Positions 2,896-23,866 of a stretch of 64,000 bases of DNA are shown here, piece after piece. The notes below the pieces were generated by a model that worked only from the letters and a program-made list of their open reading frames with translations, did not search any database and was not told the DNA's origin. Origin of the DNA: Acinetobacter phage Presley; the sequence record KF669658.1. One strand, given 5' to 3'. Each line of letters opens with the position of its first letter. The first letter of the stretch is position 1. A program made the translations under genes and the position numbers.

Positions 2896-3130
2896 GCTAT
2901 TTAAACACCTCTTATTCACATTACACCTATGTGTACTGTGGATTGGTGTTGTAGCTATCTATAAACATACAGAACATCCAATAGGACAACTGGTAGGTGT
3001 ATACACTCTCGTTGTCTTTGGTGCTTTGTTAATTATCGGTGTGCTCTATGCGCTCCATTTCGTTTACTGGTGGCTCTTTATGAGTCATCGGTACACTTAT
3101 ACCCAATATCGCAAGAGATCACTGCTATGA
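2879..3130 (+). CDS. small membrane protein (83 aa, two hydrophobic helices)
   Basis: ORF overlapping its neighbours by a few nt; hydrophobic composition. Confidence 0.4.
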   Translation: MKYNPKLFKHLLFTLHLCVLWIGVVAIYKHTEHPIGQLVGVYTLVVFGALLIIGVLYALHFVYWWLFMSHRYTYTQYRKRSLL

Positions 3131-3789
3131 GCAAATATGATGATTTTATGGCTAGGTTCAAACACCTTATAGACGGTAAGTTTATAGGTGTACCTACACC
3201 TATCGCAGAGAACTGGCCTGTACGTACCAAAATAGTAGCTACATCGACACCAGTAGGCGTAAGCCTACGTAGTGGCATGGATGTAGCTGCAGGTATGGAT
3301 TATGGAACATTAGAAAATAGAATATGGCCTAATCCATACGAAGAACCTATTAACCTTAATAAACGAGCAATCAAACACATGAATGAAATACAACGTACAT
3401 TCAATGAAATCCATAAACACTTTCCAGAAGTGGTAGCCAAGATAGGTGAACTAGCTGAACCTTACTTCCTTGGTGGTATGGAAGGATTTCATAATATCAA
3501 CCATTACTATAATGCTGCATCTATGCGTTCTGTATTAAATACCCATAGTCGTAATATTAAATATGCGGTATACGCTATTTATTTAAAAGCATGGGTAGTA
3601 CGTGGACCATTGGATATGGAACATGCAACTCAAATACAAAAAGCATTAGGTAAGAGTCTTCGATCTAATTCACCTGCACGTGCTGCTATATATGAGTGTA
3701 TTAAATCATTTAGCAAACTAGCAGGTAATAACCAATCATTTAAACAAATCTGTTTAGCACATTCAGGATGGTATGGATATGAAAACTAA
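3127..3789 (+). CDS. hypothetical protein (220 aa)
   Basis: The ORF-track entry begins at a GTG (3070); the first ATG with a plausible SD ('aagaga') is 3127 (MSKYDDF...). Confidence 0.5.
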   Translation: MSKYDDFMARFKHLIDGKFIGVPTPIAENWPVRTKIVATSTPVGVSLRSGMDVAAGMDYGTLENRIWPNPYEEPINLNKRAIKHMNEIQRTFNEIHKHFPEVVAKIGELAEPYFLGGMEGFHNINHYYNAASMRSVLNTHSRNIKYAVYAIYLKAWVVRGPLDMEHATQIQKALGKSLRSNSPARAAIYECIKSFSKLAGNNQSFKQICLAHSGWYGYEN

Positions 3790-4336
3790 ATCAGAAGATC
3801 CTGATGTATATGTTAAAGAAATGGCAGGGTTAATTACATTAGCTGCTGACATTATCCAAAACAACAAACCAGATCTGCTTGATCACGTACCACAGTATTT
3901 AAATAGATATGGTAATAGAAACATTTCACATGATTTTTTAAATATTAACCAATCCAGACAAACTACTAATGCATTCACCTCTGAAATATTGGGTGAAATA
4001 CAGTTAATAGATAACTGGATAAATACATTAATGCGTTACTGTATTGAATCAGAAACTATTGACTATAAAGAAGACATCCCTTATTGGGAGGATATACCTA
4101 TTTCTGCTCTTGTCTATCTGCACATCGTCCAAGGACTCAGTGCAGCAGACACCGCAGAAATATTAAATGTATTAGGTCCATTTAGATTTCTAAATGATGC
4201 AGCAAAGTGTGCACTTATCCCAAGATTAAATCTTATGGGTGTAGGTCTACATACTTGGCTATATGCATCTCAATACACACGTAAAACACGCTATGCGTTT
4301 TATGACGTTAAACGTGGAATACCTAATAGCCAATGA
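3773..4336 (+). CDS. hypothetical protein (187 aa); contains internal 'IPRLNLMGVG' motif
   Basis: ORF, ATG overlap with upstream gene. Confidence 0.5.
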   Translation: MDMKTKSEDPDVYVKEMAGLITLAADIIQNNKPDLLDHVPQYLNRYGNRNISHDFLNINQSRQTTNAFTSEILGEIQLIDNWINTLMRYCIESETIDYKEDIPYWEDIPISALVYLHIVQGLSAADTAEILNVLGPFRFLNDAAKCALIPRLNLMGVGLHTWLYASQYTRKTRYAFYDVKRGIPNSQ

Positions 4337-4451: not shown

Positions 4452-5105
4452 ATGAAACCACTTTCAAGTAAGGTAGTAGCCCAAATTAATAAACAATTAA
4501 TTGGACATCCTAATATCTACCAACAATTGCAAAATGCACAATCATTAGGTTCATTACTAGAAGCATTACATGCTGCATATACTAATCTAGTAATGGATCT
4601 TAATATGGTTGATGTAGAGCGTTATTTAAATGCTCGTTATGGTTCACGTGTTAAGGCATTAGTACATGAACTCATGAACAAAGACCCTTATGTATTATTG
4701 CGATATAGCTCTATATATTTAAATCCATACCTCAATCAAATTAATGCCAGATTAGCCTTAATAGGTAAAACTGAAAGATTAGAGGAATCTAACCGTAAAG
4801 CAGGATCATGTTTAAATTATAAATATCAGATTCCTGATTTTGATTTATACGATCATTCTGCTGATGCATTAGGTAAATCTTTATTCATGAATCGTGGTAG
4901 TGGTAAATCAAACTTTCAACAAGAGTTAATGACTCAAATGTTAAAAGATATTGAAAGCCAATACATACCACCTAATTTGATTGAACAGTTAGAAAAGAAA
5001 TTCTTTAACGGTAGTCAGTTAGCTCAACTCATGGCTGCAGAAACAATAACCCTTAAAGTAGAAACAGATAATGAAAAGATCGTCACGATAGATCCTTTCA
5101 TTTAG
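4452..5105 (+). CDS. hypothetical protein (217 aa); contains 'INARLALIGK' motif
   Basis: SD 'ataagga' 8 nt before ATG. Confidence 0.55.
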   Translation: MKPLSSKVVAQINKQLIGHPNIYQQLQNAQSLGSLLEALHAAYTNLVMDLNMVDVERYLNARYGSRVKALVHELMNKDPYVLLRYSSIYLNPYLNQINARLALIGKTERLEESNRKAGSCLNYKYQIPDFDLYDHSADALGKSLFMNRGSGKSNFQQELMTQMLKDIESQYIPPNLIEQLEKKFFNGSQLAQLMAAETITLKVETDNEKIVTIDPFI

Positions 5106-5884: not shown

Positions 5885-6232
5885 ATGATCCACATCTACG
5901 TACGTACCCTATTCGGGTATGAGCATAAGCGATCTGTACCAATAGACCGTGAAGCATTCCAAGCAATAATGGATAGACACGCTACCCGAAGCATTAAAGT
6001 GCTAGGCATACGTTATTACCATTTAACCAAACAATACGACATTAACGCGCTACGTAAGATTAAAGGTATGTGTACATTGTTAGGTAAGAATTTACCCAAT
6101 GCTACCTACTTTCTTATCTTTCATTCATTTATAGATGAAGTAACCAATCCAACCTTTGACCATGTTCAACAAGAAGAATGGTTCAAAGAACTTACTCAAA
6201 TCCATAAGGTAAGAGACGATGAGCCAATCTGA
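5885..6232 (+). CDS. hypothetical protein (115 aa)
   Basis: SD 'tgaggtatat'. Confidence 0.5.
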   Translation: MIHIYVRTLFGYEHKRSVPIDREAFQAIMDRHATRSIKVLGIRYYHLTKQYDINALRKIKGMCTLLGKNLPNATYFLIFHSFIDEVTNPTFDHVQQEEWFKELTQIHKVRDDEPI

Positions 6233-6955: not shown

Positions 6956-7906
6956 ATGTATCAAGCTGAATTGGAAGTAATGTTCTCTAAGAAGCATGCA
7001 CATGAACATATCTATGACATGTTGCTTGAGAATCTTGAAACCATGGAAATGATTGAGCGTGGTATCAATCTATTAGAGGTATGGACTAACGTACCTGCTA
7101 AATACGATACCAAGCAACAACGCATTGATGCATTAAAGGGAATGAATATTCAGAAGATTGTAGAAGAAATCTATACCCGTATCATATCTGTTAAAGGCCA
7201 CACTGCATTAGCAAGTATGGCTTCACAGATTGGTATGGGACTAGGCTTTGCTGATACCAAACAAGGTATCACTTTAGCTGCAGAGATATTAGCTGTATTA
7301 GCTAATTCTGGATTCTTCTATATCTATCAACCATTCCCACGTGGACAACGATATGTTAAGTGTAACTTTGAGTTAGATGAAGAAACTCAAGAAATCGCTG
7401 ATCGTGCCATGTATATGCCACCAATGATAACCAAGCCTAATAAGCTTAAACATAACCGTAGTTCAGGCTACCAAACCATAAAAGGAGAATCTTTAATACT
7501 AGGTGGATCATATAAACATCATGAATATGATATCTGCTTAGATGTACTCAACATCATGAATTCTGTTCCATTGGCTATCAATGAAGAATTCCGTGAATAC
7601 TGTCTTGAAGAACCAACAAGTGAACTAGACGAGATTGAGGGTGCAGAACAAATGACTCAAATTGAGTTAATGAATGCACGTACGCAAAAGCGACTCAATT
7701 GGGAAGATCACGTCCGTAAATCTACTGCTCTATACGACCTGATGATAGAAGAAGGAAACCAATTCTATCTTACTCATAAAGTAGATACGCGAGGTCGTAT
7801 ATATTCTCAAGGCCATCATATCAACCCACAGGGTACTAGCTTTAAGAAAGCTATCCTAGATCTACATCGTAAGGAGAAAATCGATGTACCAGAAGGATTC
7901 TTCTAA
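6956..7906 (+). CDS. phage RNA polymerase II, N-terminal (small) subunit of a split T7-like RNAP
   Basis: 316-aa ORF with 'TAGGAG' SD. It is paired with 8466..9716, which carries RNAP motif C; the arrangement mirrors N4 gp15/gp16. Confidence 0.55.
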   Translation: MYQAELEVMFSKKHAHEHIYDMLLENLETMEMIERGINLLEVWTNVPAKYDTKQQRIDALKGMNIQKIVEEIYTRIISVKGHTALASMASQIGMGLGFADTKQGITLAAEILAVLANSGFFYIYQPFPRGQRYVKCNFELDEETQEIADRAMYMPPMITKPNKLKHNRSSGYQTIKGESLILGGSYKHHEYDICLDVLNIMNSVPLAINEEFREYCLEEPTSELDEIEGAEQMTQIELMNARTQKRLNWEDHVRKSTALYDLMIEEGNQFYLTHKVDTRGRIYSQGHHINPQGTSFKKAILDLHRKEKIDVPEGFF

Positions 7907-8180
7907 TGGTACGGCTGTTATTATTCATACTGAGTTATACGACCATCTCATGCACGGCAATCCATTTAGTGATGCACGCCTTGATGGTCACTGCATTATC
8001 GTAAGATTAGTAGGCCCTGCAATGATATTTGTATCATGGGCATCTACTCAGGATAGAAACATTTATCCAGAAATAACCATAAAAGATGAACCTGCTTACA
8101 TAGCTAGATATCGTTTATCTAAAAACTATGAAGCAGCATATGAGGCTTTATATGGAGCATCCAATAGTGGCAAGACTTGA
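7884..8180 (+). CDS. small protein inserted between RNAP II subunits (98 aa), paralog of the next gene
   Basis: SD 'aaggagaaaatcg'; shares 'LYDHL' and '[YF]IARYxLxxxYxAAY' motifs with 8152..8466. Confidence 0.5.
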   Translation: MYQKDSSNGTAVIIHTELYDHLMHGNPFSDARLDGHCIIVRLVGPAMIFVSWASTQDRNIYPEITIKDEPAYIARYRLSKNYEAAYEALYGASNSGKT

Positions 8181-8466
8181 TGTGTATATGAGCACTGCTT
8201 TATACGATCATCTTAAATTTAATATCTCATTAAATAAAAGTCGCAATGCTAAACATATGTACGATCTGAGGTTAGTACGCTTCTATACAGATATGGATAA
8301 TGGACAAATAGTACATTCATTTGACTTCCTTAAAGCCATAAATTATGCAGACCGTTTACCTAATATGCCTGAAATCTTTCCGCATGAGGAATTAGATTTT
8401 ATAGCTCGTTATAACTTATGCCGTGATTACATTGCGGCTTACAAATCAGTAAAAGGATTCCTTTAA
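8152..8466 (+). CDS. small protein inserted between RNAP II subunits (about 104 aa), paralog of 7884..8180
   Basis: ORF 8128..8466; the start is ambiguous (ATG at 8128, 8140, 8152 or 8188). 8152 has SD 'gagg' and gives the best N-terminal alignment to the paralog. Confidence 0.4.
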   Translation: MEHPIVARLDVYMSTALYDHLKFNISLNKSRNAKHMYDLRLVRFYTDMDNGQIVHSFDFLKAINYADRLPNMPEIFPHEELDFIARYNLCRDYIAAYKSVKGFL

Positions 8467-9716: not shown

Positions 9717-9734
9717 TCTAATCACAAACAAATA

Positions 9735-9761
9735 AGCTACCTTCGGGTAGCTTTATTTTTT
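9735..9761 (+). terminator. intrinsic terminator (agctacc-ttcg-ggtagct + T-run)
   Basis: 7-bp stem, UUCG-type tetraloop, 'ttattttttg' following. Confidence 0.65.
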
Positions 9762-9771
9762 GAGGTATCAC

Positions 9772-10167
9772 ATGTCAGAACAAGTAACCAATGTATGTGG
9801 ATACATACTATTACCCGAAGGTAAATATAAATTTAACCAAGTAGCTAAATTACTAGAAGAACTTGGATTCCCTACCCATTTATGTGATGAAGTTAAAGGA
9901 TTAGTAAATCATAACTTCTGGAAACAGATTACTTATATTAGTTATAGCGTTGCTAACGATAGGGTGCATATTCAAACCTTACCCATTCAACAAGAATGGA
10001 AAGAAAAGATCCCTTTTACATCCCGTGGCAATCTATATATCTATGCAGATAACTACGAACAAATTATAGCAAGAGGTAATCTCATAGGTATTAAACCACC
10101 TCCATACAAAGACCCTAAGAAATACTCAAGAGACTTTGAAACAAGAGCTAAGCAATTAGGTAGATAA
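9772..10167 (+). CDS. paralog-family protein 1 (131 aa), C-terminus 'IIARGNLIGIKP'
   Basis: The track ORF starts at TTG 9760; the ATG at 9772 has SD 'tgaggtatcac'. Confidence 0.55.
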   Translation: MSEQVTNVCGYILLPEGKYKFNQVAKLLEELGFPTHLCDEVKGLVNHNFWKQITYISYSVANDRVHIQTLPIQQEWKEKIPFTSRGNLYIYADNYEQIIARGNLIGIKPPPYKDPKKYSRDFETRAKQLGR

Positions 10168-10168
10168 G

Positions 10169-10193
10169 GCACTCCGTGCCTTTTAATGGTTTA
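10169..10193 (+). promoter_or_regulatory. TCC-triloop hairpin (GGCAC-TCC-GTGCC) + TTTAATGGTTT element; terminator and/or phage-RNAP promoter
   Basis: Perfect 5-bp GC stem with a 3-nt loop followed by 'ttttaatggttt'. A near-identical cassette sits at 37269..37312. Confidence 0.45.
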
Positions 10194-10210
10194 GGACTTA
10201 GGAGTAAACC

Positions 10211-10576
10211 GTGTCAAAAGTACAAATTGTATTACTTAAATTCTTTAGGAATATTGATACAGATATCTATGCATTTGCTAGCAGTCTAGGTATTCACTTA
10301 ACAGATTGCAGAGGACAAATAAGAGGATCTAAAACAAGATACCAACTGTTTTTTATCATCATAGATGGATCAATTAAAGCTTATCTAACCCCATTAGATA
10401 AAGACCCTAAAGACTACTTAAATGAAGGTAGACAGTATACGTTTACTGAACCAGTAGTATTACCAGGTTCAAGACGTTCACTAGATAACTTCCCCGCTAA
10501 ATTAACTTTACTCGGAATACAGGTGAATTGGTCACATGGCAAAAACAATATTACAAGGGCTTCTTATAGTTCGTGA
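10211..10576 (+). CDS. paralog-family protein 2 (121 aa), GTG start, 'PAKLTLLGIQ'
   Basis: SD 'ttggagtaaacc' 6 nt before GTG. Confidence 0.5.
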   Translation: MSKVQIVLLKFFRNIDTDIYAFASSLGIHLTDCRGQIRGSKTRYQLFFIIIDGSIKAYLTPLDKDPKDYLNEGRQYTFTEPVVLPGSRRSLDNFPAKLTLLGIQVNWSHGKNNITRASYSS

Positions 10577-10934
10577 TAAAAATCTCTTTGAGATTTGGAA
10601 AATGATCACTGATTTAGATTTACCACATCAACTTCAAAAAACCGCATTAATGCATTTTGGACGTGTAAATCTTAATCCTAATGATCCAACAAAAATCACA
10701 TGCGCTTTTAGATTTAATGAAGAAATGGGAACAGCTTTACGTATTCCAATAGAACACGTAGATGTTGACCGCTACATTGAAAATATCCCTGATTGTAGTG
10801 AAACCACGCACCGTAATGGTACTAAGGTAATAACTATTAAGATCACTCATTGGGATCAAATCAGAGCACGTGAAAAACTCTTAGGCTTAAAGAAGGATGA
10901 CGACAATGATATTAGTTGGAGTATTCCTACTTGA
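10536..10934 (+). CDS. paralog-family protein 3 (132 aa), 'IRAREKLLGLK'
   Basis: SD 'aggtga'; overlaps the upstream gene by 41 nt. Confidence 0.5.
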   Translation: MAKTILQGLLIVRDKNLFEIWKMITDLDLPHQLQKTALMHFGRVNLNPNDPTKITCAFRFNEEMGTALRIPIEHVDVDRYIENIPDCSETTHRNGTKVITIKITHWDQIRAREKLLGLKKDDDNDISWSIPT

Positions 10935-11280
10935 TTCAATAAGACAAGATAAGTACCCCATATCTACATTATTGGATCGTGGGTTCCCATACAACATCGT
11001 TACAGACATTATGCGTTTAGTAGAAAAGAACGCATTAATGGGGTATATAACCATTGAATCAAATAATAGCCGTGTTTTATATCATGATAAATATCCTCAT
11101 ATATTTAGTAATGATAAATGGATGTTATTTGATTTTAATCATTGGAATGAGTTTACAGCACGTCTTAATTTAGCAGGTATAAAAATACATGACACCTTAA
11201 AAAGAGTTTATATCAATAGTGACAGTATCGAAATAAAGGATGCTCAAGGTAACACAAAAGTTAAGATAGGAGTTACCTAA
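10897..11280 (+). CDS. paralog-family protein 4 (127 aa), 'FTARLNLAGIK'
   Basis: SD 'aagaagg'. Confidence 0.5.
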   Translation: MTTMILVGVFLLDSIRQDKYPISTLLDRGFPYNIVTDIMRLVEKNALMGYITIESNNSRVLYHDKYPHIFSNDKWMLFDFNHWNEFTARLNLAGIKIHDTLKRVYINSDSIEIKDAQGNTKVKIGVT

Positions 11281-11621
11281 TGAAATCTACTCCTGTCTTT
11301 ATACGTGGTGTCAAACTAATTAAAGGCGTGCCTGCATGTGATATCCACAACGTACTAACAGCTATGCATTTACCTAGTGCTTACTTTAATGAAGCCATGG
11401 AAAATGTATTAAGGCTCTATAAACATCCTGATGATTTAGTCTATGGGACTCTTTATATATTTGCACTTAATGACAAGATTACTTTCACTAAGTTAAATGA
11501 AAGAGGACAGTATGGTACAGACGATGTAGTTAAGATGCCTGAATATACTACGTATTTTGTAGTTATTGAAACTTATCCTGAATTAATCGCTAAAGGCAGA
11601 TTACTAGGAGCAAAGATATGA
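11280..11621 (+). CDS. paralog-family protein 5 (113 aa), 'LIAKGRLLGAKI'
   Basis: TAATG coupling; SD 'aggagttacc'. Confidence 0.55.
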   Translation: MKSTPVFIRGVKLIKGVPACDIHNVLTAMHLPSAYFNEAMENVLRLYKHPDDLVYGTLYIFALNDKITFTKLNERGQYGTDDVVKMPEYTTYFVVIETYPELIAKGRLLGAKI

Positions 11622-11974
11622 AAGATAAACCTCTTAAAATTATTGGTTTATTCCATATTAACTGTCTTAACTTTAATCAAATAGAAGACTGGATACATGA
11701 AAAGAATATCCCTGATTTACTTAAAAGCAGAGTTATATTTGTCTTTAATGAAGGAAAAGATAATCTTAATCCATATTCCAGACAGTGTATCTTTAGTGGC
11801 ACTCTAATGATTAATCCACAAACCAGAGAAGCTAAGTTTGTATCATACTGGCCTCAAGGACGTTATGTAGAGGATAGCGAATCTGAATCTAGCTTATCTA
11901 AAGTAATTAGTGTGGTTGTAGATGATTACTTAGGCTTAACAGCCCGTGCCAATTTACTTGGTATACCTCTATAG
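11618..11974 (+). CDS. paralog-family protein 6 (118 aa), 'LTARANLLGIPL'
   Basis: ATGA coupling; SD 'ggagcaaag'. Confidence 0.55.
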   Translation: MKDKPLKIIGLFHINCLNFNQIEDWIHEKNIPDLLKSRVIFVFNEGKDNLNPYSRQCIFSGTLMINPQTREAKFVSYWPQGRYVEDSESESSLSKVISVVVDDYLGLTARANLLGIPL

Positions 11975-11985
11975 GATTTTTAACT

Positions 11986-12276
11986 ATGGAGAATAAAGTA
12001 ATCATAGGTGTATTTCGTATAGATAACATCGATAGAAACCATACCGAAGCATCACTATTTAGTTTTGGATTTCCATTTGAATTAATACCAAGGATCATTC
12101 GAGCACTGCATAGAGAAGATCAGTTTATCCAATATCTTACCTTTTCAGGTAAGAGAGGACATGTAGGTGTCTCATATGATTATCCAGAAGTATTAAACAA
12201 GGAAAAGTACGCAGTAGTTAGTTTTAATACTTGGGCTGAATTCCAAGCTAAAGCTAATCTTCTTGGTTCTGTATAA
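11986..12276 (+). CDS. paralog-family protein 7 (96 aa), 'FQAKANLLGSV'
   Basis: ORF; weak SD. Confidence 0.5.
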   Translation: MENKVIIGVFRIDNIDRNHTEASLFSFGFPFELIPRIIRALHREDQFIQYLTFSGKRGHVGVSYDYPEVLNKEKYAVVSFNTWAEFQAKANLLGSV

Positions 12277-12286
12277 GGATCATATT

Positions 12287-12679
12287 ATGAAACCCGATAT
12301 ATTAGTGATTGCTGTATTTATCCTACCATCCATACCACTTAAAAACATAAGTGAATACCTATTAAATTTAGGTATACCATCTATTGCAGTTAGAAACATT
12401 ATATCTGAGATAGAAATATGGAATCTTTTAGAAGGGATAGACTCTGAAATTGCAGGTGCGGTATATGTTAGTACACGTAATTTAAATGTAGAGTTCAAAA
12501 CCAAATCTAATTTCATTCCCGGAATTATCCCCCACAGTGGTAATGGTAAAAAACCAGAAGGATGGTTATTCAAAAAGCTATTTGTAGAAGTCAATCAATT
12601 TGATGAAGCAATAGCACAAGCCAACTTAATAGCTTCCCCTACCTACAAAAATGCAGTAAATAAACGTGGACGTGGATAG
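12287..12679 (+). CDS. paralog-family protein 8 (130 aa), 'AIAQANLIASP'
   Basis: The track ORF starts at TTG 12263; the ATG at 12287 has SD 'taaggatcatatt'. Confidence 0.5.
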   Translation: MKPDILVIAVFILPSIPLKNISEYLLNLGIPSIAVRNIISEIEIWNLLEGIDSEIAGAVYVSTRNLNVEFKTKSNFIPGIIPHSGNGKKPEGWLFKKLFVEVNQFDEAIAQANLIASPTYKNAVNKRGRG

Positions 12680-12776: not shown

Positions 12777-12923
12777 ATGTTCAAGCATTACATACTTGTC
12801 TTACTTATTCTTGTGTTGTTACTGATTGGTTTAATTGTCTATCTAGGAATAGATATAACCAATAACAACACAAATCCCGTATACAACCTATTCAGTGAGT
12901 ATTCTAATCACGGTCTAAAATAG
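12777..12923 (+). CDS. small single-pass membrane protein (48 aa; below the ORF-track cutoff)
   Basis: SD 'gagaggtagat' before ATG; translation MFKHYILVLLILVLLLIGLIVYLGID... is strongly hydrophobic. Confidence 0.35.
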   Translation: MFKHYILVLLILVLLLIGLIVYLGIDITNNNTNPVYNLFSEYSNHGLK

Positions 12924-12949: not shown

Positions 12950-13135
12950 ATGGCAACTAAACACACACCGCTTAAAGCAGAACCGAATCCTGTCTATAAG
13001 ACTGCAGACAGTCTTGAAGACGCATGGTTAGAAATTAAAGCTAACCTACCTCTTACTGATGTAAACCAAACCTTCGCATTATTAATGCAATTTCAAAACA
13101 CTTTATTGAAGGAACTTCAATCTCATGGCAACTAA
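12950..13135 (+). CDS. hypothetical protein (61 aa)
   Basis: ORF; its end overlaps the ATPase gene start. Confidence 0.4.
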   Translation: MATKHTPLKAEPNPVYKTADSLEDAWLEIKANLPLTDVNQTFALLMQFQNTLLKELQSHGN

Positions 13136-14285
13136 AAACGAAATTCTTGTAACTGCAATTGAACGTGCTCTATTTGCAGGATTAGTACCACACTTGTCTG
13201 GTCAACCGGGTATTGGTAAATCTGCAATCATTCATGCTTTAGCAGATCGTTTAGATCTAAAGTTGATTGACATTCGTTTATCAACAATGGACCCAACAGA
13301 TTTAGGTGGTCTACCTAACTTTGTACAAAGTACAAACCCATTAACAGGTGAAACAGTTACACGTGTAGCTCACTTACCTAATACCAAATTCCCGTTACAA
13401 GGCTTTGATGACTTACCTGTGAAATTAGATTCCAAAGGTAAACCACTTATGCAACAGGCATATGATGATAAAGGTAATCCTTTATTTGAAGATGACGGTA
13501 AAACCAAAGTAATGGAGCCTGTTACTTATTCAGGTTGGTTAATTTTCTTTGATGAATTAACTTCTGCACCTACATTGGTTAAAGCGGCTTGTTATCAGAT
13601 CCTTTTGGATCGTGTTGTATGTGGTCATAAACTACATGAATCAGTAGCAATGGTCTGTGCAGGCAACCGTCAAGAAGATGGTGCAATTGCATCACAATTA
13701 GGTACTGCATTAGAAAACCGTTTGATTACTATTCCTGTATCACCGGATAAACAATCATTCATTGATTATGCTGCAGAACAGAATTGGGATATCCGTATCA
13801 CTTCATATGTGAACTGGAAACCAGATGCAATTACTGAATTCAAACCTAACCATGGTGATATCAACTTCTCGTCTTGTCGTACTATGGAATTCGTAAACGA
13901 TATTCTTAAAGAGTCGGAAGGTGAAATTGATGCTGCAGCCAAGTTACTTATTAAAGGTGCACTTGGTAATGGTCGTGGTACAGAGTTCCTTGGCTTCTGT
14001 GATTACTATACAGAAATTCCATCTATTGCTGACATCGTTAAAGATCCAATCAAAACACCAGTACCGGATGGTCTTGGACATCAATATGCATTAGCAGGTG
14101 TACTGGCTACAGAAATGGATAAAAACAACGGTAAAGCAATTATCCAATACGCATCACGTTTAGGTAAAGAATTCCAAGTTGTAATGGCAGGTGACGCTGC
14201 TAAGCGTAATCCGGGCCTTATGGCTATTCCAGAATTCACTACATGGATTAATGACAACATTAACCTACTAAACGCTGAAATCTAA
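13125..14285 (+). CDS. AAA+ ATPase, MoxR/AAA_5-like
   Basis: Walker A 'GQPGIGKSAI'; Walker B 'LIFFDEL'; 386 aa; partner of the VWA protein downstream. Confidence 0.65.
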   Translation: MATKNEILVTAIERALFAGLVPHLSGQPGIGKSAIIHALADRLDLKLIDIRLSTMDPTDLGGLPNFVQSTNPLTGETVTRVAHLPNTKFPLQGFDDLPVKLDSKGKPLMQQAYDDKGNPLFEDDGKTKVMEPVTYSGWLIFFDELTSAPTLVKAACYQILLDRVVCGHKLHESVAMVCAGNRQEDGAIASQLGTALENRLITIPVSPDKQSFIDYAAEQNWDIRITSYVNWKPDAITEFKPNHGDINFSSCRTMEFVNDILKESEGEIDAAAKLLIKGALGNGRGTEFLGFCDYYTEIPSIADIVKDPIKTPVPDGLGHQYALAGVLATEMDKNNGKAIIQYASRLGKEFQVVMAGDAAKRNPGLMAIPEFTTWINDNINLLNAEI

Positions 14286-14289
14286 ACAC

Positions 14290-14314
14290 ATGGGGCTTAG
14301 GCCCCATTCTTATT
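14290..14314 (+). terminator. intrinsic terminator (atggggc-ttag-gccccat + tcttatt)
   Basis: 7-bp GC-rich stem directly after the ATPase stop. Confidence 0.5.
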
Positions 14315-14324
14315 GGTAATAAAT

Positions 14325-14837
14325 ATGAGCAACACTATTCCACACCGATTTAACCACTTTACTGATGAAGCACGAAACCAGCTTCCTCAAGTAATGAACG
14401 AAGCATACATTACAGTACCTCGTTTTATGGTTTCATCCTTAGAACGGTACTTTGATCGTCATATTGATGGAGTCCCTGCTTGTTTAGAAAATTCAAACAT
14501 TGCATGGGATGACTTTGCGTTAAAGTATTCACCTGTAGATGAACAGTATCCTGATTTCGTTGTAAAGCTTTATGCAGCAGGTATCCCGTTTTATTACCAA
14601 TATGAATTTTGTGAAGACATCTCTCAAACAATTTATTTCATACCGGGTAAGAATAACTCGAACCTAACCTTTGTTAGACCAAACCTGTTCTATGTAAAGA
14701 AAGCACAATGGAACAGACTAATCATGGGCAAGATAAACAATAAGATCTTAGATAATTATTGTAATCATTTAACTGCCCGACTTAACTTAATAGGTGATTG
14801 GACTCAATTACCTGGTGACTGGAACAAAGACCTATGA
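14325..14837 (+). CDS. paralog-family protein, dispersed copy (170 aa), 'LTARLNLIGDW'
   Basis: The track ORF starts at TTG 14313; ATG at 14325; also has 'GVPAC', shared with 11280..11621. Confidence 0.5.
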   Translation: MSNTIPHRFNHFTDEARNQLPQVMNEAYITVPRFMVSSLERYFDRHIDGVPACLENSNIAWDDFALKYSPVDEQYPDFVVKLYAAGIPFYYQYEFCEDISQTIYFIPGKNNSNLTFVRPNLFYVKKAQWNRLIMGKINNKILDNYCNHLTARLNLIGDWTQLPGDWNKDL

Positions 14838-16039
14838 CAGATCCAATCGAAGAAAAGAAACAGGGTATACACGATGTAGACCCTGATATTAAAGATCGTG
14901 CTAATCAGAAGATCTTGATGTCCAAGACAGCATTATTAAATCGTTCTGATTTCACATTCTTCTCATCAATACTATTAAAGCTAAAGATCATCTTGGATAT
15001 GCGTATTCCTACCGCATGTACAGATGGTCGTACTATTCGCTTTAATCCAGTATTCCTTGAAGACTATGACCAGAAGGAAACAACCTTCATCATGATGCAT
15101 GAGCTCATGCACGTAGTCTATAAACATCTAGGTCGTGTCAATGGACGTGACCATAAGATGTGGAACGTAGCATGTGACTATGTAATTAATGGTCAGCTTA
15201 CTAAGCTTGGATTCAAACGTCCTAAGACTGCATTATTCGATACTCGTTTTAATGATCGTACTGCAGATGATGTGTACTTTGAATTATTCCAAGATGCTAT
15301 GGCTAATCCAAGTAAACCACGTCCTGAACCAGATCATAATGATATTGGTGAAGACCTGACTGATCAACAGTTAGAAGATCTCAATGAAGCTATTGATGAT
15401 CTAATTGTTAGCGGTACTGTAGCAGCACAGAACGCAGGTAATGATGCTGCAGGTAATATTCCCGGTGAACTATTACGCCGCTATCAAGAACTCACAAATC
15501 CTACTGTACCGTGGGAGAAATTATTACGTAACTTCTTAGAAGGACGTGCAAAGAATGATTTCTCTATGGCTCGTCCATCACGCCGTCATTTAGCACATGG
15601 CATGTATCTACCAAGTCTCTATAGTGAAAACTTAGAACAAATTGACTTTGCTATTGACGTATCAGGTTCAGTAGATGAAATCATGCTTGAAAAGTTCATT
15701 AGCGAAGTAGCAGGTATCTTCAAGGCATTCACACCTGAATGTATTGGGGTATACCAGTTCGACCATGAACTTAAAAAACATGATGTAGTTTATAGTCTGG
15801 AAGACTTCAAGAAAATTACATATAACGGTGGCGGTGGTACAGATGTATTACCAGTCCTAGATTATTATCGTGAAAACCAAGCTAAAGCATTAGTAATTAT
15901 TACTGATGGTTACTTCTGTCATGATAAATCTTGGGACCCACGTAAACCTGTAATTTGGGTGGTGTATGACAACCCGACCTGGAAACCCCATTTCGGTGAA
16001 GTCGCACACTTTGATATTGACAAATTCATGGGCAGATAA
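14834..16039 (+). CDS. VWA-domain protein with N-terminal HExxH metallopeptidase-like motif
   Basis: 'MMHELMHVVYKH' (HExxH); MIDAS 'DVSGSVDE'; ATGA coupling; 401 aa. Confidence 0.6.
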   Translation: MTDPIEEKKQGIHDVDPDIKDRANQKILMSKTALLNRSDFTFFSSILLKLKIILDMRIPTACTDGRTIRFNPVFLEDYDQKETTFIMMHELMHVVYKHLGRVNGRDHKMWNVACDYVINGQLTKLGFKRPKTALFDTRFNDRTADDVYFELFQDAMANPSKPRPEPDHNDIGEDLTDQQLEDLNEAIDDLIVSGTVAAQNAGNDAAGNIPGELLRRYQELTNPTVPWEKLLRNFLEGRAKNDFSMARPSRRHLAHGMYLPSLYSENLEQIDFAIDVSGSVDEIMLEKFISEVAGIFKAFTPECIGVYQFDHELKKHDVVYSLEDFKKITYNGGGGTDVLPVLDYYRENQAKALVIITDGYFCHDKSWDPRKPVIWVVYDNPTWKPHFGEVAHFDIDKFMGR

Positions 16040-18429: not shown

Positions 18430-21047
18430 AAACACTCACTTTTGGGAAAAATCCAAATCGTAAATATCCTATTGCTATCCTAATCAAAACAGCCAGTTTA
18501 GAAGAAGACGGTATTAGACAGTATTACGTGGACCCAATGGTTGAAGCGGGTATTAATCCAGAAGATATCATTGCTATCGAGTTGCAGTACAACAGTTCCA
18601 ATAAAGCCCCGGCTAAGTTAATCAAGGATTACCTTGAATTAATTGCACCTGCTTTAGCTAAGATGGAAGTGGAACATATCTATTGTGCAGACAGTGCTTA
18701 TTTCAAGGCATTAACCAAAGAAAAGAAAGCTGATCCACATATAGGTAATATTGTTCCATGTCGCTTTAATAAAGACTTAGAGCACATTAATGTGGCTTAT
18801 GGTTTAAACCATAGCTCATTAATTTATAACCCTGCTCAAAAGGATAAAATTGAAGCATCCATTACAGCACTCATTAATGTTGTAGGTGGAAACTTTAAGG
18901 AAACGTGTATCGAGTTTACTGATGAACGTTACCCAATAGATTTCCAAGACATTAAAGAAGAATTGGCTTATTTACATCAATTCGATGAACTAGCAGTAGA
19001 TATTGAAACCTTTGGTTTGAAACTAAACAAAGCAGGATTGGGAACAATTAGCTTTGCTGAATCTATTACCTCTGGTTGTGCATTCTTCATTGATTATTAT
19101 CCAATTGACCCACAAGAAGGTTTATTTGCCACACGGCGGATAAATGCACCAGTACGTAGGATTCTAAAGAAATTCTTTGAAGACTACCAAGGCAAGCTTG
19201 TAGCACATAATGCGAGCTTTGACTTTCGTATCCTGATCTATGAATTATTCATGGAACACCCATTGGATAAGAAAGGAATGATTCACGGTATTCACACATT
19301 ATGTCGATGCTTTGATGACACCAAGATCATTGCCTACTGTGCTTTAAACAGTACAGCAGAAACCAGTTATGGTTTGAAATCATTAGGCCAAGGTTACGCA
19401 GGCAACTATGCAGAAGAAGATATCAAAGATATCCGTAAAATCGAACCATTTAACTTATTGCGATATAACTTATCAGATACCTGTACTACGTTATGGGTTA
19501 AAGAGAAGTATTATCCAATTATGGTCAGAGATGACCAGTTAGATGTATATGAGCAAATCATGCTCCCAATGCAGAAAGTATTACTGCAATGTGAATTACA
19601 TGGTATGCCTATGTTCGATGAGCGTATCCAAGAAGTTAAACAAACTTTGACAGATTATGCAGATGGTTATCTTGATACCATTTATGGCAGTCACTATGTA
19701 GCTGAGGTAACTCACCTCATTCAAGTGGCTGAAATGAATGCTGCTAATGCCAAGCTTAAAACCAAACAACATCCTTTATCACATTTCAAAGATAAAGAGT
19801 TCAACCCGAACAGTCCTAAACAGTTATGTAGACTACTGTATGAGGTAATGGAATTACCAGAATTAGGATACACCCCTACTGGTCAACCTACTGTAGATGG
19901 GGACACACTAGAAAACTTATGTAATCACACCAATGATCAAGATAAGTTAGATCTGCTTAAAGCATTAGTGGGCTTCTTCAAAGTAGATAAGATCATGTCT
20001 ACGTTTATACCTGCATTTGAGAGTGGAATTCTCAAAGCAGATGGTATGCGTTACTTACATGGATCATTTAATATCGGCGGTACACGATCTGGACGTTTAT
20101 CGTCATCAGATCCAAACCTACAACAGATACCTAGTAACTCTGCTTATGGTGATTTAATCAAATTAATCTTTGGTGCACCTGATGGTTACATCATGGTAGG
20201 TGCAGATTTTAACTCGTTAGAGGATTACATCTCTGCGCTTTTATCCAAAGATACTAATAAGCTCAAGGTTTACCTTGATGGTTATGATGGTCACTGTCTA
20301 CGTGCATTCTATTACTTCCGTGAGAAAATGCCTGATATTAATGAATCTGTTGAATCAATCAACAGTATCAAGAAAAAGTATCCAGACTTACGACAAGATT
20401 CTAAGGCCCCTACATTTGCCTTAACTTATGGTGGTACTAATCATGCACTTCAAAAGCAATGTGGTTTCGATAAAGAGACTGCTATTGATATTGAAGAAAA
20501 ATACCATGAGTTATATCGAGAATCTGATGAATACGTTCAAAGACGTTTAAATGAGGTATCTCGTAAAGGTTATGCAGAATTAGCCTTTGGCTTCCGTATT
20601 CGTGCACCATTACTTAAAGCTACTGTTCATGGTTCGCGTCAGCAAATTCGTGCAGCAGCAGGTGAAGGTCGTACAGTAGGTAACGCTCTTGGTCAATCGT
20701 ATGGCCTGTTAAATAACAGATCCATGATTGCATTTATGCGTAAGGTATGGAAATCACCTTATATATACGACATTATGCCGATTGCACCAATTCACGATGC
20801 ATCTTACTACATCATCAAAGATGATCCAGATGTACTTAAATTCGTAAATGATCATCTCATTGAAGAAATGGAATGGCAGGAACTTCCAGAGATCTGGCAT
20901 GACAAAGTACGTATTGGAGCAGAACTTGATGTGTTTTATCCAGACTGGAAACACGCTATTACTTTAAAGAATAGATGGACCAGAGAACAAATCCTTGATC
21001 ATATCGATCAAACCATGGCTAAACGTGAGGAAGAAGAGAATGAGTAA
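18426..21047 (+). CDS. family A DNA polymerase with 3'-5' exonuclease domain
   Basis: Exo I 'DIETFGL', Exo II 'HNASFDF', Pol motif 'RSGRLSSSDPNLQQIP', 'HDASYY'; 873 aa. Confidence 0.85.
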   Translation: MKTLTFGKNPNRKYPIAILIKTASLEEDGIRQYYVDPMVEAGINPEDIIAIELQYNSSNKAPAKLIKDYLELIAPALAKMEVEHIYCADSAYFKALTKEKKADPHIGNIVPCRFNKDLEHINVAYGLNHSSLIYNPAQKDKIEASITALINVVGGNFKETCIEFTDERYPIDFQDIKEELAYLHQFDELAVDIETFGLKLNKAGLGTISFAESITSGCAFFIDYYPIDPQEGLFATRRINAPVRRILKKFFEDYQGKLVAHNASFDFRILIYELFMEHPLDKKGMIHGIHTLCRCFDDTKIIAYCALNSTAETSYGLKSLGQGYAGNYAEEDIKDIRKIEPFNLLRYNLSDTCTTLWVKEKYYPIMVRDDQLDVYEQIMLPMQKVLLQCELHGMPMFDERIQEVKQTLTDYADGYLDTIYGSHYVAEVTHLIQVAEMNAANAKLKTKQHPLSHFKDKEFNPNSPKQLCRLLYEVMELPELGYTPTGQPTVDGDTLENLCNHTNDQDKLDLLKALVGFFKVDKIMSTFIPAFESGILKADGMRYLHGSFNIGGTRSGRLSSSDPNLQQIPSNSAYGDLIKLIFGAPDGYIMVGADFNSLEDYISALLSKDTNKLKVYLDGYDGHCLRAFYYFREKMPDINESVESINSIKKKYPDLRQDSKAPTFALTYGGTNHALQKQCGFDKETAIDIEEKYHELYRESDEYVQRRLNEVSRKGYAELAFGFRIRAPLLKATVHGSRQQIRAAAGEGRTVGNALGQSYGLLNNRSMIAFMRKVWKSPYIYDIMPIAPIHDASYYIIKDDPDVLKFVNDHLIEEMEWQELPEIWHDKVRIGAELDVFYPDWKHAITLKNRWTREQILDHIDQTMAKREEEENE

Positions 21048-21525
21048 CAAAGTCACCCAAGATGATATTGATAATATCTTGACTACACGTGTAACTATTT
21101 ACACTAAGCACATAACTACTCCTACACCGTATGTAGAAGCTACTGCTTGGTTAGATAATCAATTCATTTTGGATACAGCAATTTCTAAAGCTGTAGATCC
21201 AGCCAACTTCGATTTAGAACTTGGCACGAAATACGCACGTGATGCCGTATTACGAAAAGCAACTGATAAGTTGTGGCAAATGGAAGGATATCTATTACAT
21301 AACCAAATCAACAAAGAACGTGCAAGCACTTTCTTAACTCGTCTTAAAGATGAATATAACGAAGTAAATGCACGTGCAACTAAACTTGCTGCATTCCTGC
21401 AGAAAGGCCAACCAGACAATATCAATACTGATGACTGGGAAGACTTAACAGAGCAGTATATGCATCAATCGCGTTATGAAGAGGTATTGGCTAAGCGTCT
21501 GCGAAAGCTAGGCCATCCAGTCTAA
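21040..21525 (+). CDS. hypothetical protein (161 aa)
   Basis: The track ORF starts at TTG 20995; the ATG at 21040 has SD 'gaggaagaagaga' and overlaps the polymerase stop. Confidence 0.45.
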   Translation: MSNKVTQDDIDNILTTRVTIYTKHITTPTPYVEATAWLDNQFILDTAISKAVDPANFDLELGTKYARDAVLRKATDKLWQMEGYLLHNQINKERASTFLTRLKDEYNEVNARATKLAAFLQKGQPDNINTDDWEDLTEQYMHQSRYEEVLAKRLRKLGHPV

Positions 21526-23330: not shown

Positions 23331-23583
23331 TGTAATCAATGCAGCCGATATGCTTATAGCAACTAACGGCGACATAATTTCGTGGTTCGATGCATCTAAA
23401 CTAGATATCAAAGAACAGAAATGTAATTTGTATAAAAACAACAAGTATGTGGACCGTGCGTCAATACACCGTAAGGTGGAGAAGACGGCACGTGACACAT
23501 ACGAAATGTTATTAGAAAGTGATGTTATCGAATTCCTTCCATATACCATGACGAAGGTGACTATCGATGGAACTGGAAATTAA
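23311..23583 (+). CDS. hypothetical protein (90 aa)
   Basis: ORF overlapping the upstream gene. Confidence 0.4.
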   Translation: MPMTLNDVINAADMLIATNGDIISWFDASKLDIKEQKCNLYKNNKYVDRASIHRKVEKTARDTYEMLLESDVIEFLPYTMTKVTIDGTGN

Positions 23584-23866
23584 CCAAAAACGTATGGACA
23601 TCTTATGTTCCATGCCATTCATTTACGCCAGTTATTTAGGTAATGAACAGATCAGTGTTATTACTAATCCGATATATCAAGATGAGTATCTTACATTTAC
23701 TAATGAAGATGGTATAGAAAAAGATATCCTCATAAATAGTTCAATTATTAATAGAACACGTAAAGGGTTCAATATTAATATAGACGATACTGTTTTTATC
23801 TATTTCCTAAACCTTGTTCCAGTTACACCCATGGTTATTGCTCAACTTAACTTAGTAGGTAAATAA
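23567..23866 (+). CDS. paralog-family protein, dispersed copy (99 aa), 'VIAQLNLVGK'
   Basis: SD 'aaggtga'. Confidence 0.45.
   Translation: MELEINQKRMDILCSMPFIYASYLGNEQISVITNPIYQDEYLTFTNEDGIEKDILINSSIINRTRKGFNINIDDTVFIYFLNLVPVTPMVIAQLNLVGK

What the first reader, a model, noticed from the sequence alone, without database searches (positions are those of the whole stretch)
9772..12679. Tandem array of eight paralogous small genes sharing a C-terminal 'A-[RKQ]-x-N-L-[LI]-G' signature
Eight consecutive, mostly translationally coupled genes of 96-135 aa end in the same motif ([WYF]-x-[EQ]-[FLI]-[TI]-A-[RKQ]-[AGL]-[NR]-L-[LI]-G-[IAL]). Examples are 'IIARGNLIGIK', 'PAKLTLLGIQ', 'RAREKLLGLK', 'FTARLNLAGIK', 'IAKGRLLGAKI', 'LTARANLLGIPL', 'FQAKANLLGSV' and 'IAQANLIASP'. 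They also share an N-terminal 'h-h-x-G-h-F ... (L/F)G(F/I)P' core. Dispersed copies lie at 14325..14837 ('LTARLNLIGDW'), between the AAA+ and VWA genes, and at 23567..23866 ('VIAQLNLVGK'). Weaker motif hits occur inside 3773..4336, 4452..5105 and 5885..6232. I do not recognise this as a described family. In phages, a lineage-specific tandem expansion of small early/middle proteins is the classic signature of host-takeover or anti-defence arms-race genes. It sits exactly where N4 has its middle-gene small ORFs.
Basis: seen in the sequence. Interest (0 to 1): 0.85.

Follow-up and report, generated by a model that had tools for sequence, protein, structure and literature searches.

The report
Orphan paralog gene array in phage Presley
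Just after its RNA polymerase II genes, Acinetobacter phage Presley carries eight tandem genes for small, related proteins that match no known family or solved structure; close relatives carry four to eight copies, the function is unknown, and accessory host-interaction proteins are my best guess.

Summary
The window is Acinetobacter phage Presley (N4-like), and 9772-12679 holds eight same-strand, mostly overlapping genes.

- **Paralogy:** seven of the eight are demonstrable paralogs (leave-one-out HMM E 1e-5 to 8e-10). The second gene (10211-10576) is only a probable divergent member.
- **Fold:** AlphaFold2 gives a confident small alpha/beta fold (b-a-a-b-b-b-a). The 'A-[RK]-x-N-L-L-G' signature is its buried C-terminal helix. 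Codons differ between copies, so conservation acts on the protein.
- **Matches:** none in Pfam, PHROGs, NCBIfam, PADLOC or PDB. A profile search of 1.84 billion proteins found only about 15 clusters; every one traced lies in a Presley-like contig.
- **Variation:** arrays in seven such phages hold 4-8 copies in mosaic combinations. All copies are under purifying selection (dN/dS 0.08-0.38), with no sign of positive selection.
- **Dispersed 'copies':** these are not family members. The tested one has a different predicted topology. They do share the helix motif more often than chance.

The anti-defence or host-takeover reading is plausible from context but untested. This is a new orphan family of a familiar kind.

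The parts
9734..9753 (+). Intrinsic-terminator-like hairpin (AAGCTACC-TTCG-GGTAGCTT followed by a T run). It lies between the RNAP II large-subunit gene and the first array gene and marks a transcription-unit boundary.
   Evidence: The core GCTACC-N4-GGTAGC sits at the same position in L003, L004, L005, L006, L007 and L010. It is unique in the window, with 0.05 matches expected.
9772..10167 (+). Array gene 1 (Presley_22, 131 aa). Family member with a basic C-terminal tail.
   Evidence: 100% identical to P0003. Leave-one-out HMM E 1.4e-5. BFVD model U5PW04 matches the g7 model at E 3e-3.
10211..10576 (+). Array gene 2 (Presley_23, 121 aa). Probable divergent member, and the only subtype present in all seven complete arrays.
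   Evidence: Leave-one-out HMM fails (E 4.3). hhalign of its orthologue profile against the rest of the family gives P 0.0025, colinear over 108 columns. Subtype table.
10536..10934 (+). Array gene 3 (Presley_24, 132 aa). Family member; its start overlaps gene 2 by 41 nt.
   Evidence: Leave-one-out E 1.8e-7. BFVD U5PWG9 TM 0.65.
10897..11280 (+). Array gene 4 (127 aa, or 124 aa from the ATG at 10906). Family member.
   Evidence: Leave-one-out E 2.3e-8. blastp against gene 7 gives 4e-15. BFVD U5PZM5 E 2e-5.
11280..11621 (+). Array gene 5 (Presley_26, 113 aa). Family member. This subtype occurs only in Presley, L003 and L008.
   Evidence: Leave-one-out E 1e-6. Subtype table.
11618..11974 (+). 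Array gene 6 (Presley_27, 118 aa). Family member; ATGA overlap with gene 5.
   Evidence: Leave-one-out E 9e-7. BFVD U5PW08 TM 0.76.
11986..12276 (+). Array gene 7 (96 aa). The minimal domain, and the member that was modelled.
   Evidence: AF2 pLDDT 83.2, pTM 0.73. Elements: E5-11, H17-26, H34-43, E50-54, E59-63, E75-79, H83-92. Leave-one-out E 7.7e-10.
12284..12679 (+). Array gene 8 (131 aa). Family member; its motif ends in A rather than G.
   Evidence: Leave-one-out E 4.7e-5. Nucleotide identity to relative L003 jumps from about 64% to 97% directly after its stop codon.
14325..14837 (+). Presley_32, between the AAA ATPase gene and the DUF2201 metallopeptidase/VWA gene. It shares only the 'ARLNL' helix end with the array and is not a copy of the domain.
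   Evidence: A151, R152, L153 and L155 are invariant in orthologues down to 27% identity. The AF2 topology differs and the motif ends a long helix, residues 139-156. hhalign against the array gives P 0.004. PSSM score 14.4 bits.
4452..5105 (+). Early protein (217 aa) with an internal 'INARLALIGK' motif that is conserved in its orthologues.
   Evidence: PSSM 15.1 bits. Orthologue alignment. hhalign P 0.004.
23567..23866 (+). 99-aa protein ending in '...VIAQLNLVGK'. Motif only.
   Evidence: 10.0 bits. No relatives were found in IMG/VR.

Best explanation
The region is a transcription unit of eight tandem paralogs. Seven are certain and one is probable. They encode small, soluble, non-enzymatic alpha/beta proteins of one orphan family that is confined to Presley-like N4-type Acinetobacter phages.

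**Shared scaffold.**
- An N-terminal strand.
- A 'L-x-x-x-G-F-P' helix-turn.
- A three-stranded sheet.
- A largely buried C-terminal amphipathic helix, [WYF]-x-E-h-x-A-[RK]-x-N-L-L-G, capped by the glycine.

The copies differ in the loops (between helix 2 and strand 2, and between strands 3 and 4) and in their C-terminal tails.

**Location and evolution.** The array fills the variable accessory slot between the RNA polymerase II genes and the AAA-ATPase/DUF2201 pair. It sits behind a conserved terminator. It evolves by gain, loss and recombinational exchange of whole gene modules.

**Inferred function (not shown).** The proteins are a panel of variant binders made at the early-to-middle transition. 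Each probably engages a different, or differently allelic, host protein. That would serve host takeover or counter-defence across diverse Acinetobacter strains.
For: **Paralogy.** Leave-one-out HMMs, blastp, and alignments A1 and A2.

**Common fold.** AF2 model of g7 with pLDDT 83. Four independently modelled paralogs match it in BFVD.

**Protein-level conservation.** The motif is encoded by differing synonymous codons in the different copies.

**Non-enzymatic scaffold.**
- The only positions at least 70% conserved in 42 proteins are A88, L92, L93, G94, P30 and P67 (M1 aside). The one widely kept polar position is basic residue 89. There is no conserved D/E/H/C/S.
- pI ranges from 6.1 to 9.6, so the copies share no charge character.

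**Restricted distribution.**
- 17 hits among 1.84 billion representative proteins. Two are repeat-protein artefacts; the rest are array-type proteins, and every one traced lies in a Presley-like contig.
- No members in N4, At2, XC38 or five IMG/VR N4-like loci.

**Accessory behaviour.**
- 4-8 copies in seven arrays, with one subtype absent from Presley.
- Against relative L003, flanking genes are 96-97% identical at the protein level. Array slots range from 98% down to 60%, with dS up to 1.5 and a sharp boundary at the array's end.

**Functional genes.** dN/dS is 0.08-0.38.

**Separate unit.** A conserved terminator lies upstream of the array.

**Accessory slot.** N4 holds unrelated accessory genes in the same slot.
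Against: - No direct evidence of any binding partner, toxicity or counter-defence activity.
- No window with dN/dS above 1, so the classic arms-race signal is absent.
- Subtypes 2 and 3 are nearly universal and well conserved. That fits a core role better than a strain-specific accessory role.
- The timing of expression is inferred from N4, not measured.
- The claim of a new fold rests on a model built from a shallow alignment of 16 sequences. The AlphaFold database could not be searched.
Confidence: 0.5

Rival explanations
1. The eight proteins are subunits of one hetero-oligomeric assembly. The conserved strand 1 and C-terminal helix would be the inter-subunit interfaces, and translational coupling would ensure equal amounts.
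For: Overlapping or closely spaced genes. The conserved surfaces are confined to a few elements. Subtypes 2 and 3 are almost always present together.
Against: Copy number varies from 4 to 8, and subtypes are freely present, absent or reordered among close relatives. That is hard to reconcile with a fixed complex. The conserved helix residues look buried within the monomer in the AF2 model.
Confidence: 0.12
2. The 'A-[RK]-x-N-L-h-G' helix is a shared docking or recognition element. It would target many early/middle proteins, both the array and other families, to one common partner. The neighbouring AAA ATPase and DUF2201 metallopeptidase/VWA pair, or an RNA polymerase, are candidates.
For: - Motif enrichment outside the array: 5 hits at 10 bits or more against 0.16 expected. 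There are none among the late proteins of the window, and one in about 37,800 aa of other N4-like phages.
- The motif is invariant in the orthologues of 14325-14837 down to 27% identity. It is also conserved in the orthologues of 4452-5105 and 3773-4336.
- Further motif-bearing early proteins occur in the relatives.
- One carrier sits between the AAA and DUF2201 genes.
Against: In the array domain most motif residues are hydrophobic core positions of a packed helix. The recurrence could therefore reflect a shared structural solution or very old common ancestry. No partner has been identified.
Confidence: 0.2
3. The motif reflects a DNA- or RNA-level signal repeated at gene ends, such as a ribosome-binding site, a promoter or a recombination site, rather than protein function. 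Alternatively the ORFs are decaying duplicates.
For: In genes 5-7 the motif lies 2-3 codons before the stop. The glycine codon (GGA or GGT) falls roughly where a ribosome-binding site for the next gene could lie.
Against: - Synonymous codons differ at nearly every motif position.
- In five genes the motif lies 14-33 codons upstream of the stop.
- dN/dS is 0.08-0.38, which shows selection on the proteins.
- The models fold confidently.
Confidence: 0.03

Closest known systems
N4 gp17-gp23 accessory slot (between RNAP II gp16 and ATPase gp24)
   Same: Same genomic position relative to the conserved RNAP II, AAA-ATPase and VWA genes. Same role as a variable cassette at the start of the middle region.
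   Different: The N4 genes are unrelated to each other and to this family: a Hoc-like decoration protein, a superinfection-exclusion-like protein, a membrane protein, a lipoprotein and an endonuclease. The family HMM finds nothing in the N4 locus.
Small-gene arrays of Acinetobacter phages At2 and vB_ApiP_XC38
   Same: These are the closest deposited phages (RNAP II large subunit about 53% identical). They also carry runs of 90-125 aa genes after RNAP II, and those genes also share a C-terminal helix motif, L-[LI]-P-x-x-E-A-[RK]-x-x-Y-L.
   Different: The motif is different. Profile-profile comparison gives P 0.48. XC38 models match the g7 model only at Foldseek E 0.1 or worse and TM 0.37 or lower. 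Homology is not demonstrable.
Tandem 'polyimmunity' arrays of small immunity proteins (for example SUKH/SMI1_KNR4, or the esaG strings of type VII secretion loci)
   Same: Strings of non-identical small cytosolic paralogs with variable copy number, reshaped by recombination. The esaG case is described in PMC9484751, found through. From general knowledge, SUKH domains start with a 'L-E-x-x-L-G-x-x-L-P'-like helix that resembles the array's 'L-x-x-L-G-F-P'.
Beta-clamp-binding C-terminal peptides (QL[SD]LF / QLxLxL)
   Same: A short leucine-rich motif at or near the C-terminus of several otherwise unrelated proteins. The tail 'AQLNLVGK' of 23567-23866 resembles the UmuC motif 'QLNLF' (the UmuC motif is quoted from memory).
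   Different: The position where a clamp-binding motif would place its glutamine is not conserved as Q. The motif's polar position is R, K or Q, preceded by an invariant A. The motif is predicted to be helical and partly buried rather than an extended peptide.

Membership tests
Tandem paralogous multigene family (the general kind) | Three or more adjacent same-strand genes with statistically significant mutual similarity over their full length | tested here: met
   Leave-one-out HMM E 1e-5 to 8e-10 for 7 of 8 genes. Full-length blastp alignments. Shared predicted fold.
Tandem paralogous multigene family (the general kind) | Copy number and composition vary among related genomes | tested here: met
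   Counts of 8, 8, 7, 6, 5, 4 and 4 members in the window, L003, L004, L006, L010, L005 and L008. One subtype is absent from Presley.
Phage counter-defence / host-takeover 'arms-race' genes | Diversifying selection (dN/dS above 1) in at least part of the protein | tested here: not met
   Whole-gene dN/dS is 0.08-0.38. No 30-codon window exceeds 1. dS is elevated together with dN.
Phage counter-defence / host-takeover 'arms-race' genes | Demonstrated inhibition of a defence system or a host process | not testable with these tools
   Needs expression and plating assays. PADLOC, which covers defence rather than anti-defence proteins, gives no hit.
SUKH / SMI1_KNR4 immunity proteins | Match to the Pfam SUKH-clan models | tested here: not met
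   No such hit among 27 members at E up to 5.
SUKH / SMI1_KNR4 immunity proteins | Structural similarity to solved SUKH-fold proteins | tested here: not met
N4 gp17-gp23 homologues | Sequence similarity to the N4 proteins encoded in the same slot | tested here: not met
   The family HMM finds no hit below E 0.1 in the N4 locus L011 or in eight other N4-like loci.
At2 / XC38 small-gene arrays | Profile-profile or structural similarity | tested here: not met
   hhalign P 0.48. BFVD XC38 models match at E 0.1 or worse, TM 0.37 or lower.
Beta-clamp-binding motif proteins | Consensus QL[SD]LF or QLxLxL in an extended, exposed terminal peptide | tested here: not met
   The motif is A-[RKQ]-x-N-L-[LI]-G within helix 83-92 of the model. 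A88 and L92 are invariant core-type positions.

The most novel reading that the evidence does not exclude
The helix end 'A-[RK]-x-N-L-h-G' is a lineage-specific recognition module. It is shared by a dozen early/middle proteins of Presley-like phages: the array, Presley_32 between the AAA ATPase and the DUF2201 metallopeptidase/VWA protein, and the proteins at 4452-5105 and 23567-23866, among others. It would dock all of them onto one hub, for instance the phage's AAA/DUF2201 machine or a polymerase. The array would then be a set of interchangeable adaptors for that hub, built on a previously unseen fold.
Probability: 0.15. Interest if true: 0.7.

Novelty: new member of a known kind. Interest (0 to 1): 0.42.

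Why it matters
Presley is an N4-like phage that infects Acinetobacter baumannii, an emerging multidrug-resistant pathogen for which phage therapy is under consideration. About 4% of its genome (eight genes) encodes a family that is annotated only as hypothetical and matches nothing known.

If the proteins are host-interaction factors, their copy number and allele set may influence which strains a Presley-like phage can infect. The family also offers:
- a possibly new small fold;
- a clean natural series of 4-8 copies for studying how phage accessory cassettes grow and shuffle.

Without experiments, it remains one more orphan phage gene family.

Tried and rejected
**Database searches with no result.**
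- Megablast of the array against the phage collection found nothing. Presley itself is not in that collection.
- Pfam, PHROGs, NCBIfam and PADLOC gave no credible hit on any member or motif carrier.
- A PDB sequence-profile search gave a best E of 0.53.
- The AlphaFold database library was unavailable.

**False positives.** Two long hits in the 1.84-billion-protein search (P0021 and P0025) are repeat or zinc-finger proteins with summed weak matches. I rejected them.

**Homology tests that failed.**
- The At2/XC38 arrays show no detectable homology to this family, and no family annotation either.
- Presley_32 is not a true copy. hhalign P of 0.004 is suggestive, but the AF2 topology differs.

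**Searches for more relatives.**
- A tblastn of Presley_32 against the phage collection found none.
- IMG/VR scans found none for 23567-23866 and only distant RNAP II relatives; the family alignment was too variable to scan with.

**Other rejected ideas.**
- A DNA-level explanation of the motif is excluded by codon variation.
- A clamp-binding motif is excluded because there is no conserved Q and the segment is helical.

**Literature.** The Presley genome announcement (PMC3853045), the N4-like diversity review (PMC7650795) and two keyword searches found no description of this family.
Full report
**Identity of the window.** The first array protein is 100% identical to 'hypothetical protein Presley_22'. 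Others match Presley_23, _24, _26 and _27, all on a 77,792-bp contig. [quoted passage not shown] Its genome announcement lists 54 'hypothetical novel' genes and does not mention this family (PMC3853045). Presley is absent from the phage collection used for BLAST, which explains the empty megablast. The closest deposited phages are Acinetobacter phages At2 and vB_ApiP_XC38, with an RNAP II large subunit only about 53% identical.

**The observation.** Eight + strand ORFs of 96-132 aa fill 9772-12679.
- Of the seven junctions, four are overlaps of 1-41 nt, two are spacers of at most 11 nt, and one is a 43-nt spacer.
- Each protein carries [WYF]-x-[EQ]-h-x-A-[RKQ]-x-[N..]-L-[LI]-[GA]. The motif lies 2-33 residues before the C-terminus.
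- The codons encoding the motif differ between copies (GCA/GCT/GCC, AGA/CGT/AAA, CTC/TTA/CTT, GGT/GGA/GGC). Conservation therefore acts on the protein, not on a DNA or RNA signal.
- Pairwise identity is low, 11-28%, but the similarity is not confined to the motif.
- HMMs built from seven members recover the eighth at E 1.4e-5 to 7.7e-10 among 437 ORFs. This holds for genes 1 and 3-8, each ranked directly after the training sequences. The best unrelated ORFs score E of 0.03 or worse.
- Gene 2 (10211-10576) fails this test (E 4.3). A profile of its orthologues aligns colinearly with the rest of the family at P 0.0025. I call it a probable, highly diverged member.

**Structure.** AlphaFold2 on the minimal member, gene 7, used a 16-sequence alignment. 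It gave pLDDT 83.2 and pTM 0.73.
- The order of elements is strand 5-11, helix 17-26, helix 34-43, strands 50-54, 59-63 and 75-79, then helix 83-92.
- The signature is this last helix plus its glycine cap.
- Across 42 distinct family proteins the conserved positions are A88 (98%), L92 (100%), L93 (76%), G94 (90%), P30 (86%), P67 (71%), G8 (69%) and L24 (69%).
- Positions 83 and 86 are always hydrophobic. The only conserved polar positions are the basic residue 89 and N91 (N in half of the proteins).
- No Asp, Glu, His, Cys or Ser is conserved. This is the pattern of a structural scaffold, not an enzyme.
- pI ranges from 6.1 to 9.6, which argues against a common DNA-mimic or nucleic-acid-binding mode.
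- Independent BFVD models of genes 4, 6, 1 and 3 match the gene 7 model, with E 2e-5 to 1.5e-2 and TM 0.48-0.76. No other viral protein matches convincingly.
- The AlphaFold database could not be searched.

**Distribution.** Pfam, PHROGs, NCBIfam, PADLOC and PDB sequence profiles give nothing.
- A profile search of 1.84 billion representative proteins returned 17 hits. Two are repeat-protein artefacts. The other 15 are array-type proteins, and every one traced lies in a Presley-like contig.
- Their contigs show the same gene order: RNAP II small subunit, a small gene, RNAP II large subunit, the array, a 61-aa gene, the AAA ATPase, the Presley_32 homologue, and the DUF2201 metallopeptidase/VWA protein.
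- Scored with the family HMM, the arrays hold 8 members in Presley and L003, 7 in L004, 6 in L006, 5 in L010, and 4 in L005 and L008.
- Clustering gives about eight subtypes. Subtype 2 is in all seven arrays and subtype 3 in six. Subtypes 5 and 6 are patchy. One subtype (L010_2 / L008_3) is absent from Presley. The order of the subtype-7 and subtype-8-like genes is swapped in L004 and L006.
- The family HMM finds no member in N4, At2, XC38 or five IMG/VR N4-like loci.

**Evolutionary mode.** I compared Presley with L003.
- Flanking genes (RNAP II subunits, AAA, DUF2201) are 96-97% identical at the protein level, with dS about 0.3.
- Array slots 2 and 3 are 98% identical (dS 0.09-0.10). Slot 4 is 86%.
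- Slots 1 and 5-8 are 60-81% identical, with dS of 0.7-1.5.
- A sliding nucleotide comparison shows identity falling to 58-78% across genes 6-8. It jumps back to 97% directly after the stop of gene 8.
- dN/dS is 0.08-0.29 here and 0.09-0.38 for L004 against L006. Core genes give 0.02-0.13. No 30-codon window exceeds 1.
- The genes are thus functional and under purifying, somewhat relaxed, selection.
- Their diversity looks like exchange of old alleles and modules by recombination. It does not look like rapid positive selection in place.

**Context.**
- A strong hairpin followed by a T run at 9734-9753 separates the RNAP II large-subunit gene from gene 1. Its core is conserved at the same place in six related loci and is unique in the window. 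The array is therefore probably a separate unit starting at the early/middle boundary. The timing is inferred by analogy with N4 and has not been measured.
- In N4 the same slot, between gp16 and the gp24 ATPase, holds unrelated accessory genes. They include a decoration protein, a superinfection-exclusion-like protein, a membrane protein and a lipoprotein. This marks the slot as a variable accessory cassette.
- At2 and XC38 fill it with their own runs of 90-125 aa genes. Those share a different C-terminal motif, L-[LI]-P-x-x-E-A-[RK]-x-x-Y-L. They have no detectable homology to the Presley family (hhalign P 0.48) and no known family.

**The 'dispersed copies'.** None is recognised by the family HMMs.
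- For Presley_32 (14325-14837), a profile-profile comparison gives P 0.004 over 83 colinear columns.
- Its AF2 model (pLDDT 78, pTM 0.76) has a different topology. The motif ends a long helix at residues 139-156. It is not a copy of the domain.
- The motif itself still recurs more than chance allows. A matrix built from the array motif scores five non-array proteins at 10 bits or more: 4452-5105, 14313-14837, 3070-3789, 20995-21525 and 23567-23866.
- The expectation from 200 shuffles is 0.16, and no shuffle reached five.
- All five are + strand early/middle genes. No other gene in the window scores above 3.4 bits, the late and structural genes included. About 37,800 aa from nine other N4-like loci give a single 10.5-bit hit.
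- Relatives carry further motif-bearing early proteins. One is 'LQARCQLLG' in the orthologue of 5885-6232.
- In Presley_32 orthologues down to 27% identity, A-R-L-x-L is invariant. The motif is also conserved in the orthologues of 4452-5105 and 3773-4336.

**Interpretation.**
- *Shown:* a real, orphan, lineage-restricted paralog family with a common predicted fold, variable copy number, a mosaic recombinational history and purifying selection.
- *Inferred:* the proteins are non-enzymatic binders with a conserved scaffold and variable loops and tails. They are made at the early-to-middle transition and act on host proteins, for takeover or counter-defence.
- This is the most economical reading of the position, the variability and the lack of catalytic residues. 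No partner or phenotype is known, so I give it about 0.5.
- *Rivals:* a hetero-oligomeric complex, disfavoured by the copy-number variation; a shared docking helix that links many early proteins to one hub, supported by the motif enrichment but weakened because the motif residues are mostly core positions; and a nucleic-acid-level signal, effectively excluded.

**Verdict.** The 'dispersed copies' are motif-sharing proteins, not family members. The arms-race function is unproven and lacks the selection signature. This is a new family within a well-known kind of phage feature, and its interest is moderate.

Noticed in passing
L001 (phage At2) 7134-9396, 11095-12009 and 12872-13162; L002 (phage XC38) 8285-9674, 9909-10184 and 10949-11836: The two closest deposited phages carry their own arrays of 90-125 aa genes after RNAP II. 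More than 15 of these proteins share a different C-terminal motif, L-[LI]-P-x-x-E-A-[RK]-x-x-Y-L. Several pairs are significantly similar (for example 3e-19 and 9e-7). They have no Pfam or PHROG family and no detectable homology to the Presley family.
   Followed up: partly
window 7884-8180 and 8128-8466: The two small genes between the RNAP II small- and large-subunit genes are paralogs of each other (blastp 2e-7). All related contigs have only one copy, of one type or the other. Their C-terminal 'F/Y-I-A-R-Y-x-L' resembles the array motif (hhalign against the array, P 0.0096).
   Followed up: partly
window 9734-9753: A perfect 8-bp hairpin with a TTCG loop followed by a T run lies just after the RNAP II large-subunit gene. 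Its core is conserved at the same place in six related contigs. It is likely the terminator of the early (virion-RNAP) transcripts.
   Followed up: partly
window 12777-12923: The 270-nt 'gap' after the array holds a 48-aa ORF with a strongly hydrophobic segment (MFKHYILVLLILVLLLIGLIVYLG...) and a GAGG-type ribosome-binding site. This stretch is 89-97% identical to relative L003. A GC-rich hairpin (GGGAAC-TCC-GTTCCC) follows the stop of gene 8 directly.
   Followed up: no
window 3070-3789, 4452-5105, 20995-21525 and 23567-23866; L003 4152-4571; L004 1861-2301 and 4175-4522: The array's helix motif (A-[RK]-x-x-L-h-G preceded by a hydrophobic or aromatic residue) recurs in several otherwise unrelated early/middle proteins of the Presley group. 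It is often near the C-terminus. It is nearly absent from the late genes and from other N4-like phages.
   Followed up: partly
window 13125-14285 and 14834-16039: The flanking conserved pair is an AAA ATPase (weak Pfam AAA hit, just above threshold) and a DUF2201 protein (putative SprT-like metallopeptidase domain plus VWA-like domain). In the Presley group a motif-bearing 170-aa gene is inserted between them. That gene diverges fast: 52% identity to L003, where the neighbours are 97% identical.
   Followed up: partly
window 9841-10020 (middle of gene 1) and 11371-11550 (middle of gene 5): Against relative L003, the centres of genes 1 and 5 fall to 62-78% nucleotide identity while their ends stay at 84-91%. 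This suggests either recombination breakpoints inside the genes or a variable central (loop) region.
   Followed up: no
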